A stretch of 64,000 nucleotides of DNA, taken from assembly GCF_009914755.1 (NCBI RefSeq), contig NC_060928.1; one strand, written 5' to 3'. Shown piece after piece: positions 47,501 through 62,113 of the stretch. A model generated the notes under the pieces. It made no database searches. It was not told the origin of the DNA and saw only the letters and a list, made by a program, of their open reading frames with translations. The number at the start of each line of letters is the position of its first letter. Position 1 is the stretch's first letter. Source of the stretch: the human T2T-CHM13v2.0 reference genome, Homo sapiens. The position numbers and the translations under genes were made by a program.

Positions 47501-47844
47501 TTTCTTTGGTTGCCTGTGCTTGTGGGGTACGACTCAAGAAATTTTTGCCCAGACCAATGTTCTGGAGAGTTTCCTCAATATTTTCTTGTAGCAATTTCAT
47601 AATTTGAGGTCTTAGATTGAAGTCTTTATTTTATTTTATTATTAAACTTTAAGTTTTAGGGTACATGTGCACAATGTGCAGGTTTGTTACATATGTATGC
47701 ATGTGCCATGTTGGTGTGCTGCACCCATTAACTCGTCATTTAACGTTAGGTATATCTCCTAATGCTATCCCTCCCCCCTCCCCCGACCCCACAACAGGCC
47801 CTGGTGTGTGATGTTCCCCTTCCTGTGTCCGTGTGTTCTCATTG

Positions 47845-51665
<3,821 letters not shown>

Positions 51666-51728
51666 TATGATGTTAGCTGGTTATTTTGCTCATTAGTTGA
51701 TGCAGTTTCTTCCTAGCCTCGATGGTCT

Positions 51729-52744
51729 TTACAATTTGGCATGTTTTTACAGTGGCTGGTACCGGTTGTTCCTTTCCATGTTTAGTGCTTCCTTCAGGAG
51801 CTCTTTTAGGGCAGGCCTGGTGGTGACAAAATCTCTCAGCATTTGCTTTTCTGTAAAGTATTTCATTTCTCCTTCACTTATGAAGCTTAGTTTGGCTGGA
51901 TATGAAATTCTGGGTTGAAAATTCTTTTCTTTAAGAATGTTGAATATTGGCCCCCACTCTCTTCTGGCTTGTAGAGTTTCTGCCGAGAGATCCACTGTTA
52001 GTCTGATGGGCTTCCCTTTGTGGGTAACCTGGCGTTTCTCTCTGGCTGCCCTTAGCATTTTTTCCTTCATTTCAACTTTGGTGAATCTGACAATTATGTG
52101 TCTTGGAGTTGCTCTTCTCGAGGAGTATCTTTTTGGCATTCTCTGTATTTCCTCAATTTGAATGTTGGCCTGCCTTGCTAGATTGGGGAAGTTCTCCTGG
52201 ATAATATCCTGCAGAATGTTTTCCAACTTGTTTCCATTCTCCCTGTCAGTTTCAGGTACACCAATCAGACGTAGAGTTGGTCTTTTCCCATAGTCCCATA
52301 TTTCTTGGAGGCTTTGTTCGTTTCTTTTTATTCTTTTTTCTCTAAACTTCTCTTCTCACTTCATTTCATTCATTTGATCTTTCATCACTGATACCCTTTC
52401 TTCCAGTTGATCAAATCGGCTACTGAGGCTTGTACATTCGTCACGTAGTTCTCATGCCATGGTTTTCAGCTCCATCAGATCCTTTAAGGACTTCTCTGCA
52501 TTGGTTATTCTAGTTAGCCATTCGTCTAATCTTTTTTCAAGGTTTTTAACTTCTTTGCCATGGGTTCTAACTTCCTCCTTTAGCTCGGAGTAGTTTGATC
52601 GCGTGAAGCCTTCTTCTCTCAACTCGTCAAAGTCATTCTCTGTCCAGCTTTGTTCCATTGCTGGTGAGGAGCTGCATTTGTTTGGAGGAGGAGAGGCGCT
52701 CTGCTTTTTAGAATTTCCAGTTTTTCTGCTCTGTTTTTTCCCAT
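51729..52744 (-). pseudogene. L1-F ORF1, disrupted
   Basis: Fragments MEQSWTENDFDELREEGF (52452-52658) and ENILQDIIQENFPNLARQ (51747-52226). Confidence 0.92.
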
Positions 52745-52869
52745 CTTTGTGGTTTTAGCTACCTTTTGTCTTTGATGATGGTGACATACAGATGGGGTTT
52801 TGGTGTGGATGTCCTTTCACTTTGTTAGTTTTCCTTCTAACAGTCAGGACCCTCAGCTGCAGGTCTGTT

Positions 52870-52998
52870 GGAGTTTGCTGGAGGTCCACTCCAGACCCTG
52901 TTTGCCTGGGTATCAGCAGCGGAGGCTGCAGAACAGTGGATGTTGGTGAACAGCAAATGTTGCTGCCTGATCATTCCTCTGGAAGTTTTGTCTCAGAG
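52870..52998 (-). promoter_or_regulatory. ~129-bp L1 5' UTR segment retained in L1PA4-and-older elements (ZNF93-binding region)
   Basis: gagtttgctggaggtccactcc..ggaagttttgtctcagag is present; this block is absent from L1HS/L1PA2. Confidence 0.7.
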
Positions 52999-53319
52999 GA
53001 GTACCTGGCCGTGTGAGGTGTCAGTCTGCCCCTACTGGGGGGTGCCTCCCAGTTAGGCTACTCGGGGGTCAGGGACCCACTTGAGGAGGCAGTCTGTCCG
53101 TTCTCAGATCTCAAGCTGTGTGCTGGGAGAGCCACTACTCTCTTCAAAGCTGTCAGACAGGGACATTTAAGTCTGCAGAGGTTTCTGCTGCCTTTTGTTT
53201 GGCTATGCCCTTCCCCCAGAGGTGGAGTCTACAGAGGCAGGCAGGCCTCCTTGAGCTGCAGTGGGCTCCACCCAGTTTGAGCTTCCCAGCCGCTTTGTTT
53301 ACCTACTGAAGCCTCGGCA

Positions 53320-53781
53320 ATGGTGGGCACCCCTCCCCCAGCCTCGCTGCTGCCTTGCAGTTTGATCTCAGACTGCTGTGCTAGCAATGAGCGAGGCTCT
53401 GTCGGCATAGGATCCTCCGAGCCAGGCATGGGATACAATCTCCTGGTGTGCCGTTTGCTAAGGCCCTTGGAAAAGTGCAGTATTAGGGTGGGAGTGACCC
53501 GATTTTCCAGGTGCCATCTGTCACCCCTTGTCTTGGCTAGGAAAGGGAATTCCCTGACCCCTTGTGCTTCCCAGGTGAGGCCATGCCTCGCTCTGCTTTG
53601 GCTCACGCTCGGTGTGCTGCACCCACTGTCCTACACCCACTGTCTGACAATCCCCAGTGAGATGAACCGGGTACCTCAGTTGGAAATGCAGAAATCATTC
53701 ATCTTATGCGTCACTCACACTGGGAGCTGTAGACTGGAGCTGCTCCTATTCGGCCATCTTGGCTCAGATTTAAGTCTTTAA
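53320..53781 (+). CDS. ORF0: LINE-1 ORF0 homologue, open and extended to 153 aa (candidate; expression unknown)
   Basis: MVGTPPPASLLPCSLISDCCASNERGSVGIGSSEPG..IRVGVTRFSRC matches L1 ORF0; ATG in gcaATGg context; antisense in L1-F 5' UTR. Confidence 0.6.
   Translation: MVGTPPPASLLPCSLISDCCASNERGSVGIGSSEPGMGYNLLVCRLLRPLEKCSIRVGVTRFSRCHLSPLVLARKGNSLTPCASQVRPCLALLWLTLGVLHPLSYTHCLTIPSEMNRVPQLEMQKSFILCVTHTGSCRLELLLFGHLGSDLSL
53752..53762 (-). promoter_or_regulatory. YY1 site of L1-F sense promoter
   Basis: reverse strand ccAAGATGGCC, intact, at the L1 5' tip. Confidence 0.8.
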
Positions 53782-56208
53782 TCCATTTTTATTTGATTTT
53801 TGTATAAGGCGAGAAATAGGGATCAAGTTTCATTCTTCTGCGTATGGATATCTAGTTTTCCTGGCATCATTTATCAAAGAGACTGTCTTTTCCCCCAATA
53901 TGTGTTCCTGGCACCTTTGTTGAAACTGAGTTCATTGTAGGTGTGTGGATTTGTTTGTGGGTTCTGTATTGGTCTATGTGTCTGTCTTTATGCCAGTACC
54001 ACACTGTTTTGGTTACTATAGCTCTAGCTCTGTAGTATAATTTAAAGTCAGGTAATGTGATTCCTCCAGCTTTGTTTTTTGTTTGTTTGTTTGTTTGTTT
54101 TTTTGTTTGTTCAGAATAGCTTTGGCTATTCTGGGTCTTTTGTGATTCCATATAAATTTTATGATTTTTTTTCTACTTCTGTGAAGATTTCATTGGTATT
54201 TTGATAGGGATTGCATTGAATCTGTAGGTTGCTCAAGGTAGTATGGACATTTTAGCAAAATTGTTTTTTCCAATCCATGAACATGGAATATCTTTGCATT
54301 TTTCTGTGTCCATTTCTTCCATCATTGTTTTATAATTTTCATTGTAGAGGTCTTTCATTTCTTTGGTTAATTCCTAGGTATTTGGAATTGCATTTGTGAT
54401 TTGGATCTCAGCTTGAATGTTATTGGTATAGAGAAACGCTACTGATTTTTGTACATTGTTTTTGTATCTTGAAGTTTTACTGAAGTTGTTTACCAGATAT
54501 AGGACCTTTTGGGCAGAGACTATGGGGTTTTCTGGGTATAAAATAATATCATCTGTGAAGAGAGATAGTTTGACTTCCTCTATTCCTACTTGGATGCCTT
54601 TTAATTCTTTCTCTTGCCTGATTGCTCAGCTAGGACTTCCAGTATGCATTTAATATGAGTGGTGAGAGTGGGCTTCCTTGTCTTGTTCTGGTTCTTAAGG
54701 GGAATGCATTCAGCTTTTGCCCATTCAGTATGATGTTGGCTGTGGGTTTGTCATAGATGGCTCTTATATTTTATGCATAATTTGTTGAGGGTTTTTAACA
54801 TGAAGAGATGTTGAATTTTATTGAAAGCCTTTTCTTTGTCTATTGAGATGATGATGTGGTTTTTATTTTTCCTTCTGTTTATGTTATGAATCACATTTAT
54901 TGATTTGTGTATGTTGAATCAACCTTGCATCCTAGGAATAAAGCCTACTTTCTCATGATGGATTAGCTTTTTGATGTGCTGCTGGATTCGGTTTGATAGT
55001 ATTTAGTTGAGGATTTTTGCATCTGTGTTCATCAAAGATATTGGCCTGATGTTTTGTGTCTGTGTGTGTCTGCTGGGTTTTGGTATCAGAATGGTGCTGG
55101 CCTCATAGAGTGAGTTAGGGAGGAGTCCTTTTCCTCAATTTTTGGGAATAGTTTCAGTAGAATTGGTACTGGCTCTTCATTATACATCTGGTAGAATTCT
55201 GCTGTGTAGCCATATGGCTCAGGGCTTTTTCTGATTGGTAGGTTTTTTATGAATGATTCAATTTTGGAACTCATTATTGGTCTGTTCAAGGTTTTAATTT
55301 CTTCCTGGTTCAATCTTGGGAGGTTGTATGTTTTCAGTAATTTATTCATTTCTTCTAGGTTTCTGGTATGTGTGTGTAGAGGTGTTCATAATAGTCTCTG
55401 AGGAGTTTTTCTATTTCTGTGGGGTCAGTGCTAATTCCCCCTTTGTCCTTTCTGATTGTCCTTTTTTGAATCTTCTCTCTTTTTTTCTATATAATTCTAA
55501 CTAGTAGTCTATCAATCTTATTTATTATTTCAAAAAACCAACTTTAGGTTTTGTTGATCTTTTGCATGTTTTTTCACATCTCAATTTTATTCAGTTTGGC
55601 TCTGATTTTGGTTATTTGTTTTCTTCTGTTAGCTTTGGGGTTTTTTTTTTCTTGTTTTTCTGATTCCTCTAGGTGTGACGTTAGATTGTTAATTTGAGAG
55701 CTTTCTAACTTTCTGATGTGGGCATTTAGCACTATAAACTATCCTCTTAACACTTCTTCATTTGTGTCCCAGAGATTCTAGTATATTGTATCTTTGTTTT
55801 CATAAGTTTCAAATAATTTTTTTATTTCTGCCTTAATTTCACTGTTTACCCAAAAGTCATTTATGAGACAGTTGTTTAGTTTTCATATAATTGTATTGTT
55901 TTGAGAGATCTTATTAGTATTGATTTCTGTTTTTATTTTGCTGTCTTCCAAAGGCTTGGTTGGTATGATTTTGATTTTTCTGAATGTGTTATGAATTGTT
56001 TTATGGCCAAGCATGTGGTTGATTTTAGAGTATGTGCCATGTGCAGATGAGAAGAATGTATATTTTGTTGTTGTTGGATGGAGTGTTTTGTAGATGTCTG
56101 TTAGGTCTATTTGGTCATATTGTGTTTAGGAATATGTAACAAATATGTAACAAATATCTTTGTTAGTTTTCTACCTTGATGTTCTGTCTATTACTGTCAG
56201 TGGGGTAC

Positions 56209-56586
56209 TGTATTAGTCTGTTCTCACACTGCTATAAAGAACTACCTGAGACTGGATAATTTATGGAGAAAAGAGGTTAAATTGACTCACAGTTTGCAGG
56301 CTGTACAGGAAGCATGACTGGGAGGGCTCAGGAATCTTATAATCATGGCAAAGGCAAAGGGGAAGCAAGCACATCTTACCATGGCAGAGCAGGAGAGAGA
56401 GAAGGGGAAAGTGCTACACACTTTCAAACAACCAGGTATCTTGATAACTCACTCACTATCATGAGAATAGCAAGGGGGAAGTCCACCCCTCATGATACAA
56501 TCACCTCCCACCAGGCCCCTCCTTCAACACTATTAATTACAATTTGATATGAGATTTGGGTGAGGACACAGTGTCAAACCATATCA
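56209..56586 (-). mobile_element. MaLR 3' LTR (MSTA-like)
   Basis: tgtattagtctgttctcacactgctataaagaactacctgagactgg..caggctgtacaggaagcatg..caaaccatatca; adjacent polypurine tract (56587-56625, reverse strand) marks it as the 3' LTR. Confidence 0.92.
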
Positions 56587-58520
56587 TTCCACCCCTGGCC
56601 CCTCCCAAATCCCATTTCCTTCTCATATTTCAAAGCACAATTATGCTTTCCCAACAGTCCTGCAAAGTCATAACTAATTCCAGCATTAACTCAAAAGTCC
56701 AAGTCCAAAGTCTCATCTGAGACAAGGCAAGTCCCTTCTGCCTCTGAGCCTTTAAAATCAAAAGCAAGTTAGTTACTTTCAAGATATAATGGGGGTACAG
56801 GAATTTGGTAAATAGACCTTTTCTAAGAGGGAGAAATCAGCCAAAACAAGGGGGCTACAGGCCCCATACAAGTCTGAAACCCAGCAGGGCAGTCATTAAA
56901 TCTCAAAGCTTTAAAATAATCTCCTTTGACTCTATGTCTCACATCCAGGCCACATTGATGCAAGGGGTAGACTCCCAAGGCCATGGACAGTTCTGCCCCT
57001 GTGGCTCTGCAGTTCCCACAGCTGTTTTCATGGGCTGGCATTGAGTGCCTGCAGCTTTTCTGGGCATGTGGTGCCAGCTGTTGGTGGGCCTACTATCCTG
57101 AGGTCTGGAGGATGGTGGCCATCTTCTCACAGCTCCATTAGGCAGAGCCCCAGTGGTGACTCTGTGTGGGAGCTTCAACCCCACGTTTTCCGTCTGCACT
57201 GCCCTAGTTGAGGTTCTCCATGAGGGCTCTACACCACAGCAGACTTCTGCCTGGACATCCAGGCATTTCCATACATCCTCTAAAATCTAGGTAGAGACTC
57301 CAAAACCTCAACTCTTAGCTTCTGCACACCTGCAGGCTCCGCACCACATGGAAGCCATCAAGGCTTTGAGCTTTCACCCTCTGAAGCAATGGCCCGAGCT
57401 GTACATTGGCCCATTTTAGCCATGGCTGAAGCTGGAGTGGCTCAGATGCAGGGCGCCATGTTCTGAGGCTGCACAGAGCAGCAAGGCCCTGGGCCTGGCC
57501 CATGAAACATTTTTTTCCTCCTAGGTCTTCAGGCCTGTGATAAGAGGGGCTGCCATGAAGGTCTCTGAAATGCCCTGGAGACATTTTCTCCGTCGTCTTG
57601 GCAGTTAACATTCAGCTCCTCTTTACATATGCAAATTTCTGCAGCCTTGAATTCCTCTTCAGAAAATGGGTTTTTCTTTTTATATTGCATGGTTGGGCTG
57701 CAAATTTTCCAAACTTTTTTTTTTTTTTTTTTTTTTGGAGACAGAGTCTCACTCTGTTGCCCAGGATGGAGGGCAGTGGTGTGATCTTGGCTCACTGTAA
57801 TTTCCACCTCCTATATTCAAGTGATTCTCATGCTTCAGCCTCCTGAGTAGCTGGGATTACAGGCATGCACTAACACACCTGGCTAATTTTTGTATTTTTA
57901 GTAGAGATGGAGTTTTGCCATGTTGGCCAGGCTGGACTCGAACTCCTGGCCTCAAGTGATCTGCTGGCCTTAGCCTCCCAAAGTGCTGGGATTACAGGCA
58001 TAAGTCACCACACCCAGCCCGAATTTTCCAAACTTTTATGCTTGCTTCCCTTTTAAATATAAGCTCTAGTTTTAGGTCATTTCTTTGTTTATGCAAATAA
58101 GCATAGGCTTTTAGAAGCAGCCAGGTCATATCTGGAACACTTTCCTGCTTAGAAATTTCTTCCGTCAGAAGAAATTTCGTCTCTCTCAAGTCCAAAGTTC
58201 CACAGATCTCTAGGGCAGGGGCACAATGCCACTAGTCTTTTTGCTAAAGCATAGCAAGAGTGAAAAATAATTATTCCAGTTTCTAGTAAATTCCTCATCT
58301 CCATCAGAGACCACCTCAGGCTGGACTTCACTGTCCATATCACTATCAGCATTTAGGTCACAACTATTCAGCAAGTCTCTAGAAAGTTCCAAACTTTCCC
58401 TCATCTTCCTGTCTTCTGAGCCCTCCAAACTATTCCAACCTCTGCCCATTACCCAGTTCCAAAGTCACTTCCACATTTTCAGGTCTCTTTATAGCAATGC
58501 CCCACTTCTCTGGTACCAAT
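56587..58520 (-). mobile_element. MaLR internal region (MSTA-int-like), PPT to PBS
   Basis: Typical THE1/MST-int sequence (ccaaagtctcatctgagacaaggcaagtccc..); ends ..gccccacttctctggtaccaat, the PBS on the reverse strand. Confidence 0.92.
57719..58019 (-). mobile_element. Alu (old S / Sz-like) inside MaLR internal region
   Basis: Dimeric Alu; TSD aattttccaaactttt at 57703-57718 / 58022-58037. Confidence 0.95.
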
Positions 58521-59585
58521 GGTGGAATGGCTTTTTGAAGTCACAATCACAACGCCAACTAGGTGTGAAAATACTTTACAAGGTTTGGGCAAAGTTCTCC
58601 AGAAGGCTGTGTATGCTTTGAATCAGCATCCAATATATGGTACTGTTTTTCCCATAGCGGGATTCATGGGTTCAGGAATCAAGGGGTGGAAGTGGAAGTG
58701 GCAGCATTCACCATCACCCCTAGTGACCCACTAGCAAAATTTTTACATTCTTTTCCCACAACATTATCTTCTACTGGCCTAGAGGTCTTAGTTCCAGAGG
58801 AAGGAATGCTGCCACCAGGAGACACAGCAATGATTCCATTTAACCGGAAGTTAAGATTGCCACCTGGCCACTCTGGCCTCCTCTTGCCTCTAAGTCAACA
58901 GGCTAAGAAGGGAGTTACAGTGTTGGCTGAAGTGATTGACCCAGACTATCAAGATGAAATAAGACTACTACTCCACAATGGAAGTAAGGAAAAGTATGTC
59001 TGGAATACAGGAGACCCCTTAGGGCGTCTCTTAGTATTACCATGCCCTGTGATTAAGGTCAATGGAAACTACAACAACCCAATTCAGGCAGGACTACAAC
59101 TGGCCAGAACCCCTCAGGAATGAAAGTTTTGGTCACTCTACCAGGTAAAAAACCGTGACCAGCCAAGGTGCTTGCTGAAGGCAAAGGGAATACAGAATGG
59201 GTAGTAGAAGAAGGTAGTTATGAATACCAGCTATGACCACATGACCAGGTACAGAAATGAGGATTGTAATTGTCATGACTATTTCCTCCTTATTTTGTTA
59301 TAAATATGTTTGTGCATACATACACCTGTACTGAGAAAGTGTCTTCATTTTATTTCCCTTCTTTTTCCTTTATCACGTAACGTAAGATTTATTGACTTCA
59401 TATCAGCATTTAAGTGTTGTTAACTTTATTTAATAGCATTTAGGTTAAGGATTAGTGTGCTTCTTGTTGTATGAAGGATAGTTGTATTATGTTAGGCATA
59501 ATTATGACCTATTATTTTCTTTATTTGGAGATTAAGTGTGATTTCAGGAGATGTGTATGAGTGCCAAGTTGACAAGGAGTTGACT
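58521..59585 (+). mobile_element. HERV-L internal 3' segment (integrase C-terminal part, dUTPase, 3' UTR, PPT)
   Basis: ggtggaatgg..gaagtcacaa.., LQKAVYALNQHPIYG; dUTPase frame; PPT-like gttgacaaggagttgact directly before the LTR. Confidence 0.92.
58686..59123 (+). pseudogene. HERV-L dUTPase-domain relic (145-codon open stretch)
   Basis: LPPGDT..LRLPPGHSGLLLP..GVTVLAEVIDPDYQDEIRLLLHN..GDPLGRLLVLP; motif 3 (normally G-x-ID-x-DY-x-GE) has both glycines substituted. Confidence 0.85.
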
Positions 59586-60171
59586 TGTGATAGTCAATAT
59601 GAGGTGACAACCTGATTGGATTGAAGAATGCCTAGATAGCTGGTAAAGTATTGTTTCTGGGTGTGTAAGTTAGGATGTTGCCTGAGGAGATTGACATTTG
59701 AGTCAGTGGACTGGAAGAGGAAGACCCACCCTGAATGTTCAATGGGCACCATCCAATTGGCGCCAGTGCAGCTAGAACAAAAGCAGGAGGAAGAAGGTGG
59801 GATAAGACGGCTTGCTGTGTCTTCTGGCTTTCATTTCTTTCCTGTGGTGGATACTTCCTTTTGTTTCTCCTGCCCTTGGCCATCAGACTCCAAGTTCTTC
59901 AGCCTTTTGACTCTTGGACTTCTGCCAGTGTTTGACGAGGGGCTCTTGGGCCTTCAACCACAGACTGAAGGCTGCACTGTTGACTTTCTTGCTTTTGAGG
60001 CTTTTGGACTCAGACTGAGCCACTACTGGCCTCTATCTTCCTCAACTTGCATATGGCCTATTGTGGGACTTTGCCTTGTGATAGTGTGAGCCAATTCTCC
60101 CTAATAAACTTCCTTTCATATATACGTATATCCTGTTAGTTCTGTCCCTCTGGAGAACCCTGACTAATACA
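59586..60171 (+). mobile_element. HERV-L 3' LTR (MLT2A2/MLT2B3-like)
   Basis: tgtgatagtcaata..tgattggattgaag..atttgagtcagtggactgg..aataaac..ttctgtccctctggagaaccctgactaataca. Confidence 0.93.
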
Positions 60172-62113
60172 GGTACTGATGTCTTCCGCTATTATTTTGT
60201 GGTTGTCTAAGTATCTTCCTAGGTCTCTTAAAATTTGTTTTATGAATCTGGGTTCTCCAGTATTGGGTGCAGATATACTTAGGATAGTTAAGTCTTTTCG
60301 AATTGAACCCTTAATCATTATGTAATACCTTTCTTTGTCCTTTTTGTCATTTGTCAGTTTAAAGACTATTTTGTCTGAAATTAGAATGGCAACCCCTGCT
60401 CTTTTTTGTTTTCCATTTGCTTGCTTGATTTTCTTTTTCCAGTCCTTTACTTTGAGCCTAAGGATATCATTGTATGTGAGTTGGATCTCTTGAAGGCAGC
60501 ATACAGTTGGGTCTTACCCCTTTAGATTCTTAATTCTTCACCTTTTAAATGGGGTGTTTAGACCATTTATGTTCAAGTTTAATATTGATATGTACAGATT
60601 TGATTCTATCATTGTGGTGTTAGTTGGTTGTTATGCAGACTTGATTGTATAGTTGCTTTATGGTGTCAATTGTCTATGTACTGAAGTGTGTTTTTGTGAT
60701 GGCTAGTAACAGTTTTTTGTTTCCATATTTAGCATGCCCTTAAGGACCTCTTGTAAGGCAGGTCTGGTGGTAATGCATTCCCTTAGCATTTGCTTGTCTG
60801 AAAAGGATTTTTTTTTTTTTTCATTTATGAAGCTTAGCTTCACTGGGTATGAAATTCTTGGTTGGAATTTTTTTCTTTTGAGAATACTAAATATAAGCAC
60901 CCAGTCTCTTCTGGCTTGTAGGATTTCTGCTGAAAGACCCACTGTTAGCCTGATAGGGTCCCCTATGTAGGTGACCTATCCGTTCTCTCTAACTGCCTTT
61001 AATATTTTTTCTTTTACTTTGACCTTGGGAATCTGATGACTATGAGTCTTGGGGATGGTCATCTTATATAGTATCTCACAGAAGTTCTCTGAATTTCCTG
61101 AATTTGAATGTTTACCTCTCTAGTAATGTTGGGGGAGTTTTCATGGACAATATCCTCAAATATGTCTTCCAAGTTGCTTGTTCTCCCTCCCTCTTTTTCA
61201 GGGATACCAGTGAGTCATAGGTTTAGTCTCTTTACATAATATCATATTTCTCAGAGGTTTGTTTATTTTTTTTCTTTATTTTGTCTGACTAAATTTTTTT
61301 TAAGAACCAGTCTTCGAGCTCTGAGATTCTTTCCTCAGCTTGGTCTATTCCGCTGTTAATACTTTTGATTTATTATGAAATTATTGAAATGAGTATTTCA
61401 GATCTATCAGATCAGTTTGGTTCTTTCTTAAAATGTCTATTTTGTCTTTTAGATCTCTTATCATTTTATTGGACTCCTTGGATTGGGTTTTGGCTTTCTC
61501 CTGAATCTTGATGCTCTTCTTTGCTATCCTGATTCTGAATTCCTTGTCTGTCATTTTAGTCATTTCAGTATGGTTAAAAACAATTGCTGGGGAGCAAGTG
61601 AAGTCATATGGAAGTAAGAAGACACTTTGGCTTTTTGAGTCGCCAGAGTTCTTGCACTGGTTCTTTCTTATCTATATGGGCTGATGTTCCTTTAATCTTT
61701 GAAGTTACTGCCCTTTGGATGGGTTTTTTTTGCTTTCTTTGATGCCCTTGTGGTATAAATTGGATTCAGTTAACTGGCTTCATTGCTGAAAGATTTCAGG
61801 GGGCTACAGCTCAGCTCAGCACAGCTGGGCTGTGTGCTGTAATCCTAGGCAGCTGGTAGCAGGCCCATGGCTTTATTCTCTGGTACTTCAAGGTTAAGCA
61901 CCTCCTGCACTGGAGGGGCTGAGGTGTTCCCGGCCTGCTGGCAACAACGATCTGATGGGGGATGCTGGCAAAACTGCTTCTTTGGGGTATGGCAGCAGGG
62001 TCCTTGCATGTATGTGTGCACTGGTGGGAGCAGGGCAGCAGAGTCCGTGCACACACATGCTTGTGCCAGTAGCAGCAAGGCAGTGGAGTGCGCATGCACA
62101 TGCACGGGCAGGG

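What the first reader, a model, noticed from the sequence alone, without database searches (positions are those of the whole stretch)
58495..58545. The hybrid junction falls exactly at the MaLR primer-binding site: signature of an aberrant second strand transfer
Seen: the MaLR internal sequence runs to ..cttctcTGGTACCAat (58511-58520; the PBS start is an 8-bp palindrome). It then switches to HERV-L integrase sequence ggtggaatgg, with only about 2-3 nt (aa/aat) attributable to both partners. Known: retroviral minus-strand synthesis runs off the RNA template around the PBS and must transfer to plus-strand strong-stop DNA there. Inference: the + strand of this window is the MaLR minus-strand cDNA read 5'->3'. 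At the obligatory jump it landed on a HERV-L minus-strand cDNA and copied it to its U5 end. A random genomic deletion would be unlikely to stop within a few nt of the PBS.
Basis: partly seen in the sequence, partly recalled or inferred. Interest (0 to 1): 0.75.

Follow-up and report, generated by a model that had tools for sequence, protein, structure and literature searches.

The report
Back-to-back hybrid of two retrotransposons
Two different ancient retrovirus-like elements, joined back to back exactly at one partner's primer site, entered the human genome as a single insertion, which likely records a failed DNA-copying step and suggests that both were copied in the same particle.

Summary
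The junction is real and lies 0-2 nt past the MaLR primer-binding site (PBS), with 2-3 nt shared by both partners. The strongest fact, not named in the finding, is that the whole 3,963-bp hybrid (MaLR 3' LTR and internal part on minus; HERV-L integrase-dUTPase and LTR on plus) has two outward U5 ends, one exact 5-bp target-site duplication and a collinear host L1. It is one insertion, single-copy.

Three other MaLR copies lack the 5' LTR, start in the same 6-nt spacer and carry target duplications, so PBS-ended cDNAs are a recurrent intermediate. A 1q21 element (MaLR 5' LTR, PBS, 28S rRNA piece, HERV-L, one duplication) looks like the mirror error. No second inverted chimera was found. The PBS palindrome and a HERV-L break hotspot got no support.

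Failed second strand transfer is well supported. Whether reverse transcriptase (about 0.5) or host end-joining (about 0.35) made the join cannot be told from sequence. It is a new variant of known template-switch chimeras, useful as fossil evidence that HERV-L machinery carried MaLR.

The parts
55600..56208 (-). Host L1, left flank (older than the hybrid)
   Evidence: Aligns to the L1 copy at window 50637-51227
56204..56208 (.). Left copy of the 5-bp target-site duplication (GGTAC)
   Evidence: the two L1 flanks overlap by exactly 5 bp on the reference L1
56209..56586 (-). MaLR 3' LTR (MST type; subfamily name recalled, not tested), U5 end pointing outward to the left
   Evidence: 65-83% identical to the 5' LTRs of 29 MaLR paralogues; ends in CA on minus; purine tract just inside
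56587..56610 (-). MaLR polypurine tract
   Evidence: Purine-rich run directly before the LTR on minus
56587..58520 (-). Complete MaLR internal region, about 1.6 kb without the Alu, ending 0-2 nt past the PBS; no 5' LTR
57715..58021 (-). Alu inserted later, with its own duplication of about 15 bp
58500..58518 (-). MaLR primer-binding site, matching tRNA-Leu(TAA)
58518..58520 (.). Junction; 2-3 nt shared by both partners
58518..59585 (+). HERV-L 3' internal piece: end of integrase, dUTPase (about 58764-59057), 3' untranslated part; frames broken
   Evidence: Pfam dUTPase E 4.7e-14; rve just upstream in a paralogue; 81-87% identical to 29 paralogues
59586..60171 (+). HERV-L 3' LTR (MLT2 type; MLT2A2-like by recall, not tested), U5 end pointing outward to the right
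   Evidence: 39 other genomic LTRs at 81-85% over most of its length; TG...CA ends
60172..60176 (.). Right copy of the 5-bp target-site duplication
60172..60800 (-). Host L1, right flank, continuing in register
   Evidence: Aligns to the L1 copy at window 51234-51853

Best explanation
This single-copy insertion joins a MaLR copy that ends at its primer site to the 3' part of a HERV-L copy in the opposite direction, and likely arose when the MaLR cDNA missed its second strand transfer and was likely extended by reverse transcriptase on a HERV-L cDNA in the same particle. Shown: anatomy, break position, one 5-bp duplication, single copy, and three other PBS-ended MaLR insertions. Inferred: (1) the window's plus strand from 56209 is the MaLR minus-strand cDNA, which ran off its RNA template just past the PBS; (2) its 3' end paired through 2-3 nt with a HERV-L minus strand in the integrase region and was copied out to the HERV-L U5 end, the HERV-L strand being copied or filled the other way; (3) the product had two U5 ends with nearly the same terminal sequence, which the HERV-L integrase inserted together into an L1. 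With no inward-pointing promoter it could not be copied again. No present-day function is claimed.
For: Exact 5-bp duplication and collinear L1. Five bp is the family's length: 9 of 10 related LTRs match at 4 or 5 of 5. The break is 0-2 nt past the tRNA-paired end.

Three independent MaLR copies without a 5' LTR start in the spacer and carry duplications: L062/L106 and L122/L138 share 7 nt, L169/L170 match at 4 of 5. A control anchor about 40 nt inside gave no complete LTR loss among 15 hits from 2661 copies; 6 were fetched, 9 judged from printed letters.

Mirror case at 1q21: MaLR 5' LTR and PBS, 28S rRNA piece, HERV-L, MLT2-type LTR, with one 5-bp duplication exact in 4 of 5 duplicated copies. 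Both halves of the window element are about equally diverged from their nearest relatives. No second copy of the junction at up to 3 mismatches.
Against: The overlap is only 2-3 nt, at chance level. The three LTR-less copies keep about 5 nt of spacer (3-6 given ambiguity) and the window keeps 0-2; if this MaLR ended likewise, 3' trimming was needed, which fits host repair better than reverse transcriptase (lack of proofreading recalled). Those three copies are THE1-like, not MST-like.

No second inverted chimera was found in screens that catch about 36% of junctions among 1735 MaLR-type anchors, nor among 188 HERV-L anchors. The control comparison is too small to be significant. Several older-looking hits (L114, L118 family, L119, L125) could not be classed. 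No stall site on the HERV-L side was confirmed.
Confidence: 0.52

Rival explanations
1. Two-donor integration or end-joining: a PBS-ended MaLR cDNA and a 5'-incomplete HERV-L cDNA each gave one U5 end to the same integration complex, and host end-joining fused the free inner ends, before or just after strand transfer. It shares the failed second transfer and the common particle with the best explanation; only the enzyme and timing of the join differ.
For: Predicts the same duplication, break position and short overlap. Two of three LTR-less copies show 5+2-nt duplications, as host repair through short overlaps would leave. It explains the shorter spacer remnant here. Concerted integration from two separate donor DNAs in vitro is recalled, not read.
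Against: Needs two incomplete, partly single-stranded DNAs to reach the target together. The join has no inserted bases. The 1q21 mirror element has three templates in series, breaking right after an 18-nt PBS, which fits reverse transcriptase switching between these same partners.
Confidence: 0.33
2. Later genomic rearrangement: a longer structure (two neighbouring insertions, or a head-to-head dimer of full cDNAs) lost its middle by deletion, or ectopic repair replaced the MaLR 5' LTR with a HERV-L 3' piece.
For: Short deletions that start in the spacer do occur (L107, L112, L121), and same-direction MaLR/HERV-L joins with doubtful duplications exist (L032/L068, L044).
Against: Two insertions would have to use the same 5 bases of L1. 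A patch would have to end exactly at both LTR ends. A deletion from a dimer would have to stop in a 6-nt spacer out of about 2 kb, where pre-integration ends are seen three times.
Confidence: 0.09
3. Integrase made the join: the MaLR strand ends in CA at the PBS (58517-58518), like a processed LTR end, and was transferred into HERV-L DNA, after which the two U5 ends were integrated.
For: The junction reads CA followed directly by HERV-L bases if the cut is placed after 58518.
Against: Needs a third strand-transfer event and resolution of a branched DNA. The three LTR-less copies do not end at this CA.
Confidence: 0.04

Closest known systems
Template-switch complex LTR retrotransposon insertions (Sabot and Schulman 2007, PMC1950507; first half of the text read)
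   Same: Two parent elements fused during reverse transcription and inserted once; a shared flanking 5-bp duplication is the diagnostic
   Different: Those are same-family, same-direction, with three LTRs and similar outer LTRs; this one is cross-family, inverted, with two 3' LTRs and two U5 ends
5'-LTR-less (type 2 defective) HTLV-1 proviruses (PMC7877780, passages; their origin before integration is recalled only)
   Same: Loss of the 5' LTR with the 3' LTR kept; the three THE1-like copies found here have this form
   Different: In the window the free end is fused to a second element that supplies another U5 end
Mosaic or recombinant HERVs such as Harlequin (PMC4724089 passages and two supplement searches; PMC5753468 passages)
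   Same: Recombination between ERV families, attributed to cross-packaging
   Different: Those are same-direction and some spread further. That paper treats antisense MaLR pieces as secondary insertions or software artefacts; here one duplication encloses both halves and the copy is single
MaLR as pol-less relatives of ERV-L (PMC11359688 passages); trans-complemented pairs such as MusD/ETn (PMC10924933 passages)
   Same: A non-autonomous element that needs a helper's enzymes and shares its tRNA-Leu primer site
   Different: The passages read give homology and timing; a physical MaLR/HERV-L join inside one insertion is more direct evidence

Membership tests
Single integrase-made LTR insertion | TG...CA outer ends | tested here: met
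   56209 and 60171
Single integrase-made LTR insertion | Target duplication of the family's length, target otherwise intact | tested here: met
   5 of 5; L1 overlap exactly 5 bp; 9 of 10 relatives match at 4 or 5 of 5
Canonical provirus | Two direct-repeat LTRs of one family, with one U3 and one U5 outer end | tested here: not met
   Two different LTRs, inverted, both U5 outward
MaLR (MST type) | LTR of about 370 bp, purine tract, internal region of about 1.6 kb, tRNA-Leu PBS | tested here: met
   similarity to thousands of genomic candidates
MaLR (MST type) | Best match to a named Repbase or Dfam subfamily (MSTA against MSTB) | not testable with these tools
   No repeat library on hand; names are recalled
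HERV-L / ERVL | dUTPase behind integrase at the end of pol, then an MLT2 LTR | tested here: met
   feature stated in PMC4724089 and PMC5753468; the MLT2 subfamily name is recalled
Failed second-strand-transfer product | Minus strand ends at or just past the PBS, with no 5' LTR | tested here: met
   three further cases
Failed second-strand-transfer product | Join made by reverse transcriptase | tested here: inconclusive
   2-3 nt overlap at chance level, no inserted bases
Failed second-strand-transfer product | Same junction in the oldest orthologue | not testable with these tools
   No related genomes held
Template-switch complex insertion (Sabot and Schulman type) | Third internal LTR and near-identical outer LTRs | tested here: not met
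   No internal LTR; the outer LTRs are of different families. It works like this class but is not a member
Amplified recombinant family (Harlequin-like) | Several copies share the junction | tested here: not met
   One copy

The most novel reading that the evidence does not exclude
The human genome holds a small fossil class of MaLR/HERV-L strand-transfer accidents (this inverted two-U5 hybrid, the 1q21 mirror element, the 5'-LTR-less copies). Together they are direct physical evidence that HERV-L particles packaged, copied and integrated MST and THE1 genomes, and that a class III integrase accepted two U5 ends from two different families in vivo. A census would pair each MaLR subfamily with the HERV-L lineage that moved it.
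Probability: 0.6. Interest if true: 0.68.

Novelty: new variant of a known kind. Interest (0 to 1): 0.5.

Why it matters
MaLRs make up about 4% of the human genome (PMC4724089) and lack pol and env (PMC11359688), so a helper must have copied them. ERV-L is the usual candidate, on homology and timing in the passages read. Chimeras enclosed by one target duplication tie a given MaLR to a given HERV-L in one reaction, which makes the helper question testable by sequence alone. They also map where the minus strand ended in these extinct elements and show that two U5 ends sufficed for a clean insertion. The element itself is a dead single copy in an lncRNA intron, with no function shown.

Tried and rejected
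1. Palindrome-joined head-to-head dimers: 0 exact matches. At up to 3 mismatches there were 56 sites; the 50 listed all had 3 mismatches and were mostly ordinary LTR junctions. Three odd ones were fetched: two keep their LTR and one is an LTR-less copy.

2. Break hotspot at this HERV-L site. It looked strong in the first set (4 of 13 breaks within 30 nt, P 9e-5, 29 loci). It was not reproduced: 0 large breaks within 15 nt among 36 new loci, 2 of which gave no anchor match; 2 of 7 breaks, P 0.09, when two loci shared with the first set are counted. Genome-wide there were 7 hits at the site, only 1-2 of them large, against 2 and 2 hits at control sites whose anchor counts were not measured.

3. 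A 9-14 nt inverted match between the junction and the MaLR purine tract/U3 border (56585-56598 with 58516-58529). Eleven of 1060 ERVL 9-mers occur in the MaLR half, and the region has 61 inverted pairs, so it is treated as chance.

4. HERV-L inserted into the PBS, since the duplication equals the palindrome core: rejected, because the right flank continues as L1, not MaLR.

5. Splicing at the AG before the junction: the deletion joins seen lack a donor pattern and the partner is antisense.

6. Amplification: single copy.

7. HERV-L PBS without its LTR: 1 hit among 188 anchors, with the LTR visible.

8. Literature: ten searches found no description of this locus or of an inverted two-U5 MaLR/ERVL insertion. 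Seven older papers on MaLR, strand-transfer errors and aberrant integration were not held, so close laboratory precedents may exist. A search of the PMC4724089 supplements for an estimated hg19 position gave 0; the estimate was recalled, so this is weak.

Full report
Anatomy. An old L1 is interrupted at 56208 and resumes at 60172. Both flanks align to another L1 copy in the window and overlap on it by exactly five bases, which read GGTAC on both sides. Between them lie, on minus, a MaLR 3' LTR (56209-56586), its purine tract, a complete internal region with a later Alu, and the PBS. On plus follow the end of HERV-L integrase, a dUTPase (Pfam E 4.7e-14; integrase core just upstream in a paralogue) and an MLT2-type LTR (59586-60171). 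Both outer ends are U5 ends finishing in CA. Five bases is this family's duplication length: of 10 related LTRs, 3 match at 5 of 5, 6 at 4 of 5 and 1 at 2 of 5. The hybrid is therefore one insertion. Subfamily names (MSTA, MLT2A2, THE1) are recalled, not tested.

The junction. All 29 MaLR relatives fetched continue past the 58520-equivalent into a 6-nt spacer and their 5' LTR. The 29 HERV-L relatives match the window from 58518 and none matches at 58515-58517. The PBS (58500-58518) matches the 3' end of tRNA-Leu(TAA) genes plus CCA, so the break is 0-2 nt past the tRNA-paired end. The overlap of 2-3 nt is unremarkable (17.6% and 6.3% of random joins). No second copy exists at up to 3 mismatches; the one other hit is not a MaLR/HERV-L join.

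Is a PBS end a natural intermediate? Among 1735 PBS anchors (20 in the reversed control), two screens for a missing LTR gave 19 and 42 hits and together catch about 36% of junctions. I examined 15 of the 19 and 23 of the 42 as loci (three are shared) and judged the rest from the printed letters; five of those are duplicates of one locus examined. Besides the window, two young MaLR copies lack the whole 5' LTR, and a third came. All three start inside the spacer and have target duplications: 7 nt shared in L062/L106 and L122/L138, 4 of 5 in L169/L170. Some older-looking hits could not be classed. A control anchor about 40 nt inside gave 15 hits among 2661 copies and no complete loss (6 fetched). 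The counts are too small for significance; the duplications are what show that these ends existed before integration. None of the three is joined to a second element.

Did MaLR and HERV-L meet in one reaction? Five duplicated copies at 1q21 carry a MaLR 5' LTR, spacer and PBS, then an antisense piece of 28S rRNA (Rfam E 4e-39), then HERV-L integrase, dUTPase and LTR, inside one 5-bp duplication that is exact in 4 of 5 copies. The break comes right after the PBS, as expected if a MaLR plus-strand strong-stop DNA had landed on the wrong template. A targeted screen found only this family and two short deletions. Two more same-direction joins (L032/L068, L044) have doubtful or no duplications. The window's halves are about equally old: best LTR identities are 83% and 84-85%, best internal identities 82% and 87%, though the relatives were chosen in different ways. 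A review places MST and HERV-L amplification in primates and describes MaLR as pol-less (PMC11359688, passages).

Mechanism. The review read confirms only that a second strand transfer is part of the cycle and was reported as intramolecular (PMC12789967, passages); that it takes place at the PBS is established knowledge, recalled. The MaLR half is a minus strand that did not make this transfer. Most likely (0.52) reverse transcriptase extended it on a HERV-L minus strand, giving a linear DNA with two U5 ends that integrase joined concertedly; concerted joining leaves short direct repeats (PMC2857682, passages). The main rival (0.33) is that two incomplete DNAs each gave one U5 end and host repair fused the inner ends. 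The shorter spacer remnant here and the 5+2 duplications elsewhere favour this rival; the clean join and the 1q21 series favour the first. Both need the two cDNAs in one particle or complex. Later rearrangement (0.09) and an integrase-made join (0.04) need more coincidences.

Results against. No second inverted chimera, no palindrome dimers, no HERV-L counterpart among 188 anchors, and a HERV-L break hotspot that appeared in one set and failed in two checks. Orthologues were not available.

Comparison. Fused elements within one duplication are known from grasses as same-direction, three-LTR structures (PMC1950507, first half read). 5'-LTR-less proviruses are known from HTLV-1 (PMC7877780, passages), and mosaic HERVs are common, with antisense MaLR pieces read there as secondary insertions or artefacts (PMC4724089, passages and supplement hits). 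Ten searches of the held library found no inverted two-U5 cross-family case; seven older papers were not held, and laboratory precedents for aberrant transfers at the PBS are recalled only. Verdict: real, a new variant of a known kind, interest 0.5.

Noticed in passing
L039, L040, L041, L053, L058 (G000:C1, 120.0-148.6 Mb): THE1-like 5' LTR and PBS, antisense 28S rRNA piece, HERV-L integrase-dUTPase and MLT2-type LTR inside one 5-bp duplication; five duplicated copies of one event.
   Followed up: yes
L062/L106 (C5:102.09 Mb), L122/L138 (C5:84.58 Mb), L169/L170 (C1:59.59 Mb): THE1-like copies with no 5' LTR that start in the spacer before the PBS and carry target duplications.
   Followed up: yes
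L068:2298-6700 (C4:29.77 Mb): THE1-like element whose 3' LTR stops after about 65 nt and joins HERV-L pol in the same direction; outer 5-mers match at 3 of 5, so one or two events is unclear.
   Followed up: partly
L044:1335-3099 (C1:238.45 Mb): About 160 nt of MaLR internal sequence joined in the same direction to HERV-L within 6 nt of the window's break site; no clear duplication.
   Followed up: partly
L131 (C23:115.98 Mb): The PBS palindrome and spacer occur repeated and scrambled between the internal region and the LTR, perhaps slippage during strand transfer.
   Followed up: no
L118 and five duplicates (C1:142-144 Mb, C2:89-92 Mb); L114: PBS with a perfect tRNA match and no LTR recognised behind it; older or different family, not classed.
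   Followed up: partly
window 56204-56208 and 58512-58516: The target duplication has the same five letters as the core of the PBS palindrome; taken as chance because the L1 continues in register.
   Followed up: partly
window 56585-56598 and 58516-58529: A 14-nt, 86% inverted match links the MaLR purine tract/U3 border with the junction; about chance level.
   Followed up: yes
window 47650-53780: A near full-length younger L1 on minus sits inside older L1 sequence; used as the reference for the flanks.
   Followed up: partly
window 56209-60171: Both LTRs point outward, so the hybrid would be a divergent promoter pair inside a LINC02615 intron; no annotated regulatory element overlaps it and activity was not tested.
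   Followed up: no
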